In this document: positions 9,433-10,677 of the stretch, in pieces | How positions within the stretch are numbered: the stretch's first letter is position 1 | Layout: the number at the start of each line of letters is the position of its first letter | NCBI GenBank assembly: GCA_016181305.1 | Contig: JACOZN010000002.1 | Span: 1 to 64,000, forward strand | DNA length: 64,000 nt | Direction: 5' to 3' | Source: Candidatus Woesearchaeota archaeon | GTDB lineage: Archaea; Nanobdellota; Nanobdellia; Woesearchaeales; GW2011-AR4 | Notes under the pieces: model-generated | Database searches by the model: none | The model's input: the letters and a program-made list of their open reading frames with translations, nothing else | What the model was told of the DNA's origin: nothing | Translations under genes and position numbers: made by a program

Positions 9433-10677
9433 ATGGCTTTGACTTATTTCAACCTGGAAAAAGAGCATGTTATTAACCATTACAGGTTCAAGCCTTTAAA
9501 AGATGGATTCCTGCTGACGAATGACTTTGGGTTCTGGGTTTATCTGAGCAAGGAAGAATTTGATTTAATAATGCACGGCAAAATTGAGCAGAATCAGGCA
9601 TTGTTTTCCTTGCTGAAAGAAAAGGGGTTTGTCTTAACCCAGGATAATGCTGATGATCTTGTCAATGGCTTCAGGCAGCGCTCAAGGCATTTATTCAGGG
9701 GAACTTACAATCATGTCATTTCTTTGGATGGTGAAAATTTTGATGAAGTAAATGTAAAAAAGATTGCAGATTTTATAGTGCAGAGCCCGTCAAGAGAACT
9801 AATTGTGAAATTTAAAGGCAAGCTTCCGGAGAGTTTTGAGGCAATAGGCAGATTTGCTGAAGAATTCAAAAAAACAGGCAAATCTGTGCAATTCAGCATT
9901 GAGTTGGGACTAGAAAGTATTAGCTACGAGCTTGTTGAATTTTTGATAAGCAATAAATTTGATGTTTGGATTGCCTTGAATGACGTAAAAATTCCTGAAA
10001 ATACATTTGAATTGATTAAGCAGCTGCAGAGGAGGCACAGGGTTAATTTTTACCTTGATGTTTCAGATAGTGTGTTAGGCAAAGAGCAGGATATTGTGGA
10101 TTTTTTTGCTGAAAATAACTTCAGGTCTTTTTTTGCAAGAAAGGCAAAAGACGTAAATAAGGATGATTTTATGGATTTCTGGAAAAAAACAATTGATTAC
10201 GCTTATGACTTAAACAGGAAAAACCAAAGGATTGTATTCAATGAGCGCCTTGCTTCCATCCTGCTAAATAATATCACAAGCCCAACTGATGTTTTTTACC
10301 CGGAGCTTAGCAATTTTTGCACCGGCGCGGTTGTAAGCGAACTGGGCTATACATTAGACGGCGATATTTTCGCAAACGAGGAGTCAATCGGGATTGAGCT
10401 GTTTAAAATAGGCGATGCAAGCCAAAGCTATGATGAAGTTGTTTCGGGCGAAGAGGCGTTGTCTTTGATAAGCTCTTCCATAAATTCAAGCCCGTTTATG
10501 GAAATGAGCGTTTTCAAGCCTTATATGGGGAATTGTCCGGTGTGCAATTACATGGAGAACGGCAACATAATTCCAAAGTATTCAAGCGAGAGGAATTATA
10601 TTTTGAGCAGGATGCTGGATTATTTGTTTGAGAAGGTTTTGCTTGAGGGTGTAAGGTATAAATTATCGTTTTATTGA
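9433..10677 (+). CDS. Degenerate HxsB-like radical SAM protein lacking the CxxxCxxC motif
   Basis: N-terminus YRFK..FLLTNDFG and DFIVQSPS, CTGAVVSELGYTLDGDIF and CPVCNY match HxsB. Only 3 Cys in 414 aa; the rSAM triad and GGEP are absent. Confidence 0.75.
   Translation: MALTYFNLEKEHVINHYRFKPLKDGFLLTNDFGFWVYLSKEEFDLIMHGKIEQNQALFSLLKEKGFVLTQDNADDLVNGFRQRSRHLFRGTYNHVISLDGENFDEVNVKKIADFIVQSPSRELIVKFKGKLPESFEAIGRFAEEFKKTGKSVQFSIELGLESISYELVEFLISNKFDVWIALNDVKIPENTFELIKQLQRRHRVNFYLDVSDSVLGKEQDIVDFFAENNFRSFFARKAKDVNKDDFMDFWKKTIDYAYDLNRKNQRIVFNERLASILLNNITSPTDVFYPELSNFCTGAVVSELGYTLDGDIFANEESIGIELFKIGDASQSYDEVVSGEEALSLISSSINSSPFMEMSVFKPYMGNCPVCNYMENGNIIPKYSSERNYILSRMLDYLFEKVLLEGVRYKLSFY

What the first reader, a model, noticed from the sequence alone, without database searches (positions are those of the whole stretch)
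9433..10677. Catalytically dead HxsB-like radical SAM protein with the CxxxCxxC segment cleanly deleted
Where HxsB has the Cys triad and GGEP, this protein reads HVISL-DGENFD..DFIVQSPS..KFKGKLP, and only 3 Cys remain in 414 aa. The frame is intact and full length, and the N-terminal ~70 aa (YRFK..TNDFG..LKEKGF) look like an RRE/winged-helix. The active rSAM at 15844 begins directly with its rSAM domain and has no N-terminal RRE. Inference: the pseudo-enzyme supplies leader recognition in trans.
Basis: partly seen in the sequence, partly recalled or inferred. Interest (0 to 1): 0.75.

Follow-up and report, generated by a model that had tools for sequence, protein, structure and literature searches.

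The report
Dead HxsB-like radical SAM adaptor protein
A tiny DPANN archaeon keeps, under purifying selection, an HxsB-like radical-SAM maturase whose iron-sulfur Cys motif has been deleted but whose peptide-recognition domain is intact. It is most likely a non-catalytic adaptor in a rewired His-Xaa-Ser-type peptide-maturation cluster.

Summary
ORF 9433-10677 is an intact 414-aa HxsB homologue (TIGR03978, 113 bits against a cut-off of 370). An in-frame gap of about 18-20 aa removes CxxxCxxC, GGE is gone, and only 3 Cys remain.

It is not a decaying gene:
- dN/dS is 0.16-0.23.
- The fold is kept (pLDDT 93; anSME, CteB and TigE at Z 25-27).
- The N-terminal 88 aa, folded alone, match RiPP recognition elements best.

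Loss of the triad is recurrent. 35 of 141 full-length relatives lack it, and a single origin is rejected (AU p 0.0001).

The gene sits in a conserved cassette: A24-like membrane peptidase, HxsD, HxsD-like, HxsB. The window also holds a precursor (12682-12999) with an HxsA3-type leader and a poly-(Xaa-Cys) core.

The RRE-less 15844-type rSAM/SPASM is rare: 7 of 201 sampled genomes of the order (window's included). It lies within 10 kb of an HxsB-like gene in five of the six others, and next to two other dead-HxsB loci.

The two closest MAGs keep the cassette without a detectable 15844-type enzyme.

Verdict: a new variant of a known kind. Earlier notes of this scan had already flagged the surrounding cluster.

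The parts
7802..8806 (+). A24-like polytopic membrane aspartyl peptidase (334 aa), first gene of the conserved cassette
   Evidence: Weak Arc_PepC hit; relatives carry weak Peptidase_A24 hits. Both Asp motifs (SYEDIK and AGDAKLF) are conserved in 16 orthologues next to active and dead HxsB. Found beside HxsD.
8842..9213 (+). HxsD homologue (123 aa)
   Evidence: TIGR03976 at E 1.5e-11, 44.5 bits against a cut-off of 50. PF27806 HxsD is recorded on orthologues. dN/dS 0.08-0.30. The C-terminal tail ends in a conserved KPW motif.
9201..9431 (+). HxsD-like small protein (76 aa), overlapping HxsD and abutting the pseudo-HxsB start
   Evidence: NF038315 HxsD_rel at 46.6 bits, above its cut-off of 41. 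93-97% identical in close relatives; dN/dS 0.03-0.19.
9433..10677 (+). Pseudo-HxsB (414 aa), the finding itself
9433..9696 (+). RRE-like winged-helix domain (aa 1-88; three main beta-strands then helices)
   Evidence: Model pLDDT 87.8. In an all-PDB search the top hits are RRE domains: TigE N-terminus Z 6.1, TbiB1 5.8, lasso B1 5.6, PbtF 4.9, McbB 4.8, MccB 4.5, MibB 4.3, PqqD 3.6. Its dN/dS is among the lowest of the protein's domains: 0.05-0.18.
9721..9741 (+). Site of the deletion: aa 97-103 (SLDGENF) stand where intact HxsB has about 27 profile positions holding CxxxCxxC
9697..10302 (+). Degenerate radical-SAM partial TIM barrel (aa 89-290), without Cys triad or GGE
   Evidence: Together with the next domain, aligns to anSMEcpe at Z 26.9, rmsd 2.8 over 310 residues (model 89-409). 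dN/dS 0.17-0.35.
10303..10677 (+). SPASM-like remnant keeping 3 Cys (C296, C368, C371) and the C-terminal helix
   Evidence: The last roughly 45 codons are mosaic, because they lie in a recombination hotspot.
10663..11468 (-). Inserted toxin-antitoxin cassette: DUF3368 PIN-like toxin (10663-11154) and UPF0175 antitoxin (11151-11468)
   Evidence: Pfam hits. Flanked by an 85-nt repeat of the pseudo-HxsB 3' end at 10561-10645 and 11648-11732, 71% identical.
11645..11785 (+). 46-aa relic copy of the pseudo-HxsB C-terminus, left behind by the cassette insertion
11828..12628 (+). HExxH (HETTH) peptidase-like protein, 266 aa
   Evidence: Sequence; weak Peptidase_MA_2 hit. It is a paralogue of the 13103 gene.
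12682..12999 (+). Precursor (105 aa): HxsA3-type leader, a hydrophobic segment, one HVS, then (Xaa-Cys) repeats with 16 Cys
   Evidence: Translation. NF038309 HxsA3 at E 3.8e-8 over residues 3-37. The same leader is found beside HxsB-like genes in 13 other loci.
13103..14632 (+). HExxH (HEITH) peptidase-like protein with a twin-arginine-like signal, 509 aa
   Evidence: Sequence. A homologue directly follows the pseudo-HxsB gene in L036.
15844..17544 (+). Intact rSAM/SPASM enzyme (566 aa) with no N-terminal RRE and a 220-aa C-terminal extension
   Evidence: PF04055 plus PF13186; best NCBIfam hit is TIGR04340 (ACGX type) at 190 bits against a cut-off of 400. CxxxCxxC at residues 21-28. Linked to Hxs cassettes. 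dN/dS 0.05.
17588..18778 (+). GT4 glycosyltransferase that travels with the rSAM/SPASM gene in the dead-HxsB clade
18783..20591 (+). Membrane-anchored PQQ-type beta-propeller protein that travels with the rSAM/SPASM and GT4 genes in the dead-HxsB clade

Best explanation
The gene encodes a pseudoenzyme. It descends from an RRE-rSAM-SPASM maturase of the HxsB family and has lost the [4Fe-4S]/SAM site (shown). It keeps its fold and its N-terminal RiPP-recognition element and is maintained by selection (shown).

Inferred mechanism:
- It works as a non-catalytic leader-binding or scaffold subunit, together with HxsD, the HxsD-like protein and the A24-like membrane peptidase.
- Its RRE holds the conserved HxsA3-type leader (MxxPxIKKxxxxFxxxEEGKISK) of the precursor at 12682-12999.
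- The poly-(Xaa-Cys) core is then modified by the RRE-less rSAM/SPASM enzyme at 15844, probably by thioether-type chemistry.
- The leader is removed by the A24-like peptidase and/or the HExxH peptidases.

On this reading, HxsB is the only RRE-bearing protein of these archaeal clusters. That would explain why the protein outlives its own catalytic site once the core changed from His/Ser-rich to Cys-rich and HxsC was lost.
For: 1. Dead site. HMM positions 88-114 are skipped, an 18-aa gap removes CxxxCxxC, GGE is lost, and only 3 Cys remain.

2. Maintained.
- 16 intact relatives at 51-86% identity, with no stops.
- dN/dS 0.16-0.23 where dS is unsaturated (0.35-0.85), similar to the neighbouring genes.
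- By domain: RRE 0.05-0.18, barrel 0.17-0.35, SPASM-like 0.05-0.22.
- The AF2 model is confident (pLDDT 93.4) and matches anSMEcpe, CteB and TigE at Z 25-27.

3. RRE. The full model aligns from residue 8-15 onward with CteB and TigE. The domain folded alone finds known RREs as most of its best hits among 48,161 chains.

4. Recurrent loss.
- 35 of 141 full-length relatives lack the triad.
- At least 7 changes are needed on two trees, and monophyly is rejected at AU p 0.0001.
- The family therefore tolerates loss of catalysis, which implies a second, non-catalytic role.

5. Conserved partners. The order A24-like, HxsD, HxsD-like, HxsB holds in both dead and active cassettes.

6. Leader and RRE co-occur.
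- The HxsA3-type leader lies beside HxsB-like genes in 13 other loci.
- In clusters with several rSAM genes only HxsB has an N-terminal domain: its motif sits at residue ~100-127, against 9-24 for HxsC-like and 15844-type enzymes.

7. Link to the 15844 enzyme.
- 15844-type proteins occur in 7 of 201 genomes of the order (window's included). All six others also carry an HxsB-like gene, and five have it within 2-10 kb on the same strand.
- Searches started from 15844-type proteins reach an HxsD-HxsB cassette in 2 of 3 cases.
- In the dead clade the enzyme lies 1.7 kb downstream in L005 and divergently adjacent in L036.

8. Core type tracks HxsB state. Cys-rich cores accompany dead HxsB in three cases: the window, G203 and L038 (an independent loss). 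His/Ser/Thr-rich cores accompany active HxsB.
Against: - No physical interaction has been shown for any pair.
- The two closest MAGs (G201, G202; 83-87% identical pseudo-HxsB) keep the four-gene cassette, but no 15844-type enzyme or HxsA3 leader was detected in them. Their contigs show only TA/RM islands for 10 kb downstream. MAG completeness is unknown.
- Synteny with those relatives ends exactly at the gene's 3' end. Adjacency of the downstream block in the window is therefore not fixed.
- In the E. coli HXS system HxsD pulled down with HxsC, and no stable HxsB-HxsC complex was seen (PMC13128918). The adaptor there may be HxsD rather than HxsB.
- The 15844 enzyme has its own 220-aa C-terminal domain. 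That domain is shared with a methyltransferase of the L036 cassette, so it may dock substrate or scaffold by itself.
- The RRE matches have modest Z scores (3-6).
- The link between core type and dead state rests on three cases.
Confidence: 0.5

Rival explanations
1. The pseudo-HxsB works only within its own four-gene cassette. For example, it acts as an escort that hands a leader-bearing or KPW-tailed client to the A24-like membrane peptidase for cleavage or export. It has no functional tie to the 15844 rSAM/SPASM, whose proximity reflects a shared island.
For: - The cassette is the only unit conserved in every dead-clade locus.
- G201 and G202 have the cassette but no detectable 15844-type enzyme or leader.
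- Synteny breaks at the 3' end of the gene.
- Gene overlaps (9201/9213 and 9431/9433) suggest co-translation with the HxsD proteins.
Against: - 15844-type enzymes are rare, yet they sit beside HxsB-like cassettes in independent arrangements, both tandem and divergent.
- The precursor with the family leader lies between the two genes in the window.
Confidence: 0.27
2. The protein is still an enzyme, but of another kind. The remaining barrel and the three conserved Cys (C296, C368, C371) bind a metal or cluster and catalyse non-radical chemistry, or it binds SAM as a sensor.
For: - The three Cys are conserved throughout the closest subfamily.
- The barrel and SPASM-like parts are under purifying selection.
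- Some independent triad-less lineages keep a full SPASM Cys set: P0043, P0066, P0083, P0090 and P0137.
Against: - Other members of the same dead clade have only 1-2 Cys: P0026 and P0027.
- The GGE motif and the loop holding the SAM cluster are gone.
- C368 and C371 lie in the mosaic 3' segment.
Confidence: 0.1
3. It is a decaying relic of a dismantled HXS-type defence system. It is kept open only by chance, or because its 3' end serves as an integration site.
For: - HxsC is absent from the genome.
- The 3' end is a hotspot for TA-cassette insertion.
- The protein evolves faster than the 15844 enzyme: 54% against 82% identity to L005.
Against: - dN/dS is 0.16-0.23 and no relative carries a stop.
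- The clade extends down to about 25-38% identity with the fold intact.
- Inserted cassettes bring a replacement 3' end, which keeps the ORF whole.
Confidence: 0.04

Closest known systems
HxsB of the HXS system (TIGR03978; E. coli antiphage system HxsD-HxsB-HxsC-HxsA, Li et al. 2026, PMC13128918)
   Same: - Best family match.
- Same domain order: N-terminal domain, rSAM barrel, SPASM region.
- Encoded directly after HxsD.
- A precursor with an Hxs-family (HxsA3) leader lies nearby.
   Different: - 113 bits against a cut-off of 370.
- Cys triad and GGE deleted. In E. coli, the C98A/C101A double mutation of HxsB abolishes HxsA cleavage and defence.
- Only 3 of the SPASM-region Cys remain.
- No HxsC.
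- A second HxsD-like gene and an A24-like peptidase are added.
- The core is poly-(Xaa-Cys), not His-Xaa-Ser repeats.
- The host is a DPANN archaeon.
RRE-rSAM-SPASM peptide maturases CteB (5WGG), TigE (8VPO), SuiB (5V1Q)
   Same: Full-length structural match including the N-terminal RRE: CteB Z 25.9 and TigE Z 25.0.
   Different: Those enzymes bind three Fe-S clusters and SAM and act in cis on the peptide their own RRE holds. This protein cannot bind the radical-SAM cluster.
Stand-alone RRE chaperones PqqD (with PqqE) and MftB (with MftC)
   Same: Proposed logic: a non-catalytic RRE protein presents the leader to an rSAM/SPASM enzyme that has no RRE of its own. PqqD is among the fold hits (Z 3.6).
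   Different: PqqD and MftB are about 90-aa single domains. Here the RRE stays attached to a 320-aa dead enzyme body that is itself under selection.
Ocin-ThiF-like partner proteins (PbtF, TbtF) of thiopeptide and related pathways
   Same: A catalytically inert homologue of an enzyme family that carries an RRE and delivers the leader to another enzyme. The PbtF RRE is a fold hit (Z 4.9).
   Different: A different superfamily (E1-like rather than radical SAM) and a different partner (YcaO).
TIGR04347 pseudo-SAM/SPASM proteins of Halobacteria
   Same: A curated precedent for rSAM/SPASM homologues that have lost the canonical site.
   Different: P0001 does not match that model at E <= 0.01. It is a different lineage and context.
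CrpC/CrpA of Methanococcus voltae (PMC13692751) and the ACGX-type rSAM (TIGR04340)
   Same: Closest described analogue for the partner pair: an archaeal rSAM/SPASM acting on a Cys-rich substrate (ranthionine crosslinks). TIGR04340 is the best NCBIfam hit of the 15844 enzyme.
   Different: According to that paper, CrpC is predicted to have its own RRE. The 15844 enzyme has none at its N-terminus and scores below the TIGR04340 cut-off (190 against 400).

Membership tests
HxsB (TIGR03978, equivalog) | Score at or above the curated cut-off (370 bits) | tested here: not met
   113.3 bits; 78.4 + 30.8 bits in two pieces in the genome search.
HxsB (TIGR03978, equivalog) | CxxxCxxC radical-SAM cluster motif | tested here: not met
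   Profile positions 88-114 are skipped, and an 18-aa gap appears against P0019, P0020 and P0021.
HxsB (TIGR03978, equivalog) | C-terminal auxiliary-cluster Cys set (the second 4Fe-4S region in PMC13128918) | tested here: not met
   Only C296, C368 and C371 remain; intact relatives have 11-16 Cys.
HxsB (TIGR03978, equivalog) | Gene context: adjacent HxsD and paired HxsC | tested here: inconclusive
   HxsD and an HxsD-like gene lie directly upstream. No HxsC was found in the 78%-complete genome; the only TIGR03977 hit is the 15844 enzyme at 49 bits.
HxsB (TIGR03978, equivalog) | His-Xaa-Ser repeat substrate (HxsA) | tested here: inconclusive
   TIGR03979 was not found. An HxsA3-type leader (NF038309, 33 bits against a cut-off of 65) is present at 12682-12999, but its core is Cys-rich with a single HVS.
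Radical SAM superfamily (PF04055) | Partial TIM-barrel fold | tested here: met
   anSMEcpe Z 26.9, rmsd 2.8 over 310 residues; also viperin, MoaA and BtrN at Z 12-14.
Radical SAM superfamily (PF04055) | Sequence match to the Pfam model, and SAM/cluster-binding motifs (CxxxCxxC, GGE) | tested here: not met
   No Pfam hit at E <= 0.01; motifs absent.
RiPP recognition element (PqqD-like winged helix) | Three-stranded beta-sheet followed by helices, matching solved RREs | tested here: met
   Main elements are E17-22, E25-30, E35-39, H40-47, H55-63, H73-87. RREs fill most of the best ranks of an unbiased PDB search, with Z 3.0-6.1. Modest Z values are expected for an 88-aa domain.
RiPP recognition element (PqqD-like winged helix) | Binds the leader peptide of the cognate precursor | not testable with these tools
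This needs FP/ITC or a co-fold of residues 1-88 with the leader.
TIGR04347 pseudo-SAM/SPASM | Match to the family model | tested here: not met
   Not among P0001's hits at E <= 0.01. It does appear among hits of the 15844 enzyme, at 116 bits against a cut-off of 525.

The most novel reading that the evidence does not exclude
HxsB-family proteins have an indispensable non-catalytic job as the sole leader-recognition subunit for several RRE-less radical SAM enzymes. This has allowed at least five to seven independent losses of their own radical-SAM site. In this DPANN lineage the surviving pseudo-HxsB re-targets an HxsA3 leader to an ACGX/Crp-like rSAM/SPASM acting on a poly-(Xaa-Cys) core. The result would be an undescribed archaeal RiPP-like or surface-protein maturation pathway derived from an antiphage HXS-type system.
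Probability: 0.3. Interest if true: 0.8.

Novelty: new variant of a known kind. Interest (0 to 1): 0.6.

Why it matters
The HXS system was only recently shown to be an antiphage defence, and what HxsB contributes mechanistically is unknown (PMC13128918).

A deep clade of HxsB proteins lacks the radical-SAM site but keeps the RRE and the fold, and it is maintained by selection. Several independent losses exist elsewhere in the family. Together these argue that HxsB has a separable binding or scaffolding role.

This gives a natural separation-of-function allele for testing that role. It also adds a radical-SAM example to the short list of pseudoenzyme adaptors in peptide maturation. Finally, it anchors a rewired archaeal cluster (HxsA3 leader, Cys-repeat core, RRE-less rSAM/SPASM) that can be reconstituted in E. 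coli.

Tried and rejected
- **Complex prediction.** The 15844 enzyme was co-folded with pseudo-HxsB, full length, each with its own alignment. The job returned no verdict (score 0.01 against a mark of 0.32). It counts neither for nor against binding.
- **Pfam on P0001.** No hit.
- **Sequence search of PDB with the N-terminal domain.** A profile of that domain returned only designed PPR repeats and other spurious rows.
- **Foldseek with the isolated N-terminal model.** No match at E <= 0.001, although RRE entries led the weak list. The exhaustive VIA search was the informative one.
- **ESM Atlas on the 15844 C-terminal extension.** Only scores of 0.85, which are leads and not evidence. That domain stays unassigned.
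- **Search for an HxsC relic downstream of the gene.** The 46-aa ORF at 11645-11785 first looked like an rSAM fragment. It is a duplicate of the pseudo-HxsB 3' end.
- **Other candidate members of the conserved system.** The PBP386 protein had no homologues in the other clusters compared. The GT4 and the PQQ propeller had none in the active-HxsB clusters compared by BLAST, although a Pfam-annotated GT4 follows the 15844-type gene in one further active cluster. They are accessories rather than core components.
- **Small proteins 'fam5' and 'fam6' of active clusters.** They were scanned as possible precursors and did not match any Hxs family.
- **Relic-pseudogene reading.** Rejected on dN/dS and depth of conservation.
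- **Single origin of all triad-less homologues.** Rejected.
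Full report
**Observation**

ORF 9433-10677 (+) is intact and encodes 414 aa with exactly three Cys, at positions 296, 368 and 371. Its only meaningful family match is HxsB (TIGR03978), at 113 bits against a curated cut-off of 370. Pfam finds nothing.

The HMM match comes in two pieces. Profile positions 2-87 map to 9475-9720 and positions 115-451 to 9742-10638. The 27 profile positions holding the radical-SAM Cys triad are therefore replaced by seven residues, SLDGENF.

Alignment with three intact relatives (P0019, P0020, P0021) shows an 18-column in-frame gap exactly over PTxxCNxxCxYCxxxxxx. 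The FQGGE/D motif is reduced to FK-GK.

**Not a decaying gene**

- The protein has 16 close relatives at 51-86% identity, none with a stop, mostly from Woesearchaeota-type DPANN metagenomes.
- Where dS is unsaturated (0.35-0.85), Nei-Gojobori dN/dS is 0.16-0.23. Over the same pairs the A24-like gene gives 0.27-0.32, HxsD 0.08-0.30 and the HxsD-like gene 0.03-0.19.
- By domain, the N-terminal 88 residues give 0.05-0.18, the dead barrel 0.17-0.35 and the SPASM-like part 0.05-0.22.
- The AlphaFold2 model built on 138 homologues is confident: pLDDT 93.4, pTM 0.91.
- Residues 89-409 superpose on anSMEcpe at Z 26.9, rmsd 2.8 Å over 310 residues. The whole chain from residue 8-15 onward superposes on CteB (Z 25.9) and TigE (Z 25.0).

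**The N-terminal domain**

Folded alone (pLDDT 87.8), residues 1-88 form three main beta-strands followed by helices. It was compared with 48,161 PDB representatives without any Foldseek pre-filter. Most of the best hits are RiPP recognition elements:

| Hit | Z |
|---|---|
| TigE N-terminus | 6.1 |
| TbiB1 with its leader | 5.8 |
| Lasso B1 | 5.6 |
| PbtF RRE | 4.9 |
| McbB | 4.8 |
| MccB | 4.5 |
| MibB | 4.3 |
| ThcOx | 4.1 |
| PqqD | 3.6 |
| CteB | 3.4 |
| SuiB | 3.0 |

The Z scores are modest, as expected for an 88-residue domain, but the enrichment is unmistakable. The RRE reading is supported.

The domain is shared by active HxsB-like proteins. The consensus LLTNDxGxWxxL...EF...L...GFI runs through the whole family.

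**Family-wide pattern**

An exhaustive HMMER search found 488 relatives at E <= 0.001. Of 141 full-length ones, 35 lack CxxxCxxC. The gaps differ in length, and in some cases the loop is kept but has no Cys.

On a FastTree tree, and on an IQ-TREE tree of a 64-row subset, at least seven changes of state are needed. Both trees left out the trait's own columns. The window's protein falls in a clade of 25 triad-less rows. Forcing all triad-less rows into one clade costs 255 log-likelihood units (AU p 0.0001). Loss of the site while the protein is kept is thus a recurrent outcome in this family.

**Context**

The genome is a 1.07-Mb, 78%-complete DPANN assembly. The gene is the last of a tight four-gene cassette:

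1. A polytopic A24-like peptidase (7802-8806). Both Asp motifs, SYEDIK and AGDAKLF, are conserved in 16 orthologues.
2. HxsD (8842-9213).
3. An HxsD-like protein (9201-9431; NF038315, above its cut-off).
4. Pseudo-HxsB.

The same order holds around dead and active HxsB-like genes in archaea. All three partner genes also recur in a Firmicutes locus.

In 201 sampled genomes of the order (200 plus the window's own), 55 carry an HxsB-like gene. All 11 loci fetched from the other genomes carry an active copy, often followed by an HxsC-like rSAM. The window's genome has no HxsC.

HXS is a published antiphage system ordered HxsD-HxsB-HxsC-HxsA. In it, the C98A/C101A double mutation of HxsB abolishes HxsA cleavage and defence, HxsC binds HxsD, and no stable HxsB-HxsC complex was detected (PMC13128918).

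**Precursor**

Its first 37 residues match NF038309 (HxsA3) at E 3.8e-8. It is the only such match in the genome.

The leader (consensus M-x-x-P-K-I-K-K-K-x-x-x-F-L-x-x-E-E-G-K-I-S-K, with minor variation, then a hydrophobic stretch) recurs beside HxsB-like genes in 13 other fetched loci.

- Cores next to active HxsB are rich in His-Xaa-Ser or Thr-Ser motifs.
- Cores found with dead HxsB are Cys-rich in all three cases: the window, G203 and L038, which is an independent loss.

**Link to the 15844 enzyme**

The enzyme is an intact rSAM/SPASM. Its triad is at residues 21-28, so it has no N-terminal RRE, and it carries a 220-aa C-terminal extension.

- Proteins of this type occur in only 7 of the 201 genomes. 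All six others also have an HxsB-like gene, and in five it lies 2-10 kb upstream on the same strand, downstream of HxsD, HxsD-like (in most), active HxsB and HxsC.
- Starting from three more distant 15844-type proteins, two sit next to an HxsD-HxsB cassette.
- Within the dead clade, the rSAM-GT4-PQQ-propeller block lies 1.7 kb downstream in L005 and divergently adjacent in L036, whose pseudo-HxsB is 38% identical.
- In multi-rSAM clusters only HxsB has an N-terminal domain.

This supports a functional tie and makes in-trans leader delivery plausible.

**Counter-evidence**

- The two closest MAGs (G201, G202) keep the cassette, but neither a 15844-type enzyme nor an HxsA3 leader was detected. 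Their completeness is unknown.
- Nucleotide synteny with these relatives stops exactly at about 10646, the 3' end of the gene. Beyond it they carry toxin-antitoxin and restriction-modification islands.
- The 15844 C-terminal domain is shared with a methyltransferase of the L036 cassette and with a Cys-rich protein in L032. It could be its own docking module.
- The one complex prediction allowed gave no verdict.

**Verdict**

- Shown: a dead radical-SAM site, a retained fold and RRE, purifying selection, recurrent loss in the family, a conserved cassette, and a genomic association with an RRE-less rSAM/SPASM and an HxsA3-leader precursor.
- Inferred: the protein binds that leader and serves as adaptor or scaffold for the 15844 enzyme and the A24-like peptidase.

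I rate the adaptor explanation at 0.5, a cassette-only role at 0.27, residual non-radical catalysis at 0.1 and relic status at 0.04. It is a new variant of a known kind: a pseudoenzyme RRE adaptor, here derived from a radical SAM maturase.

Noticed in passing
window 10561-10645 and 11648-11732; L039 12120-12254 and 13226-13342; L041 10826-10981 and 11745-11885; L043 8500-8634: The last ~45 codons of the pseudo-HxsB gene act as an insertion hotspot. Each inserted cassette (DUF3368/UPF0175 TA pairs, AAA_14 ATPase, NTase/HepT) is followed by another copy of the gene's 3' end (85-160 nt), giving arrays of cassettes separated by these repeats. The copies are mosaic between strains, and nucleotide synteny with close relatives ends at window ~10646. 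The arrangement resembles an integron-like or attB-carrying cassette array. No integrase was looked for.
   Followed up: partly
window 11433-11536: An exact 52-nt tandem duplication spans the start of the UPF0175 antitoxin gene (minus strand) and its upstream region.
   Followed up: no
window 7802-8806: The window's A24-like peptidase lacks 14 residues (AMLALAxGFALWHM in close relatives), part of the hydrophobic segment just before the AGD catalytic motif. It is 334 aa against 347-349 aa in relatives at about 84% identity.
   Followed up: no
window 8842-9213 and HxsD orthologues in 28 loci: Archaeal HxsD proteins end in a variable low-complexity tail that finishes with a conserved short motif (often DPxGIxKPW; SKPWKK in the window). 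It looks like a docking peptide and could be what an RRE or a partner enzyme binds.
   Followed up: no
L056 913-1596 (G203, the genome of L005): The HxsA3-leader precursor of this relative (227 aa) has a Cys-rich core followed by what looks like a Hint/intein-type domain (C-LLNDSLVAI ... NDHPMLV). It lies about 21 kb from the pseudo-HxsB cassette.
   Followed up: no
window 16900-17544 (aa ~350-566 of the 15844 enzyme); L036 8126-9388; L032 4737-6323: The C-terminal extension of the 15844 enzyme is a mobile domain. It is also found in a methyltransferase inside the L036 Hxs cassette and in a 528-aa Cys-rich protein. Most family members carry several Cys in it (SCxDC, KCKxC...CxGxC) that the window's copy has lost.
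   Followed up: partly
proteins P0033-P0036, P0045, P0079: HxsB-like proteins of about 790-880 aa exist. From their length and the matched region they are probably HxsB-HxsC fusions.
   Followed up: no
window 11828-12628 and 13103-14632; L053 3356-4960: Two paralogous HExxH peptidase-like genes flank the precursor. One has a twin-arginine-like signal. In another 15844-type cluster a weak Peptidase_MA_2-like domain is fused to a radical SAM enzyme.
   Followed up: partly
window 6752-7579: A 275-aa protein combines a DUF2080 transposase-associated N-terminus with a Pol-beta-type nucleotidyltransferase domain (weak HalB/MntA-like hits). It lies just upstream of the cassette.
   Followed up: no
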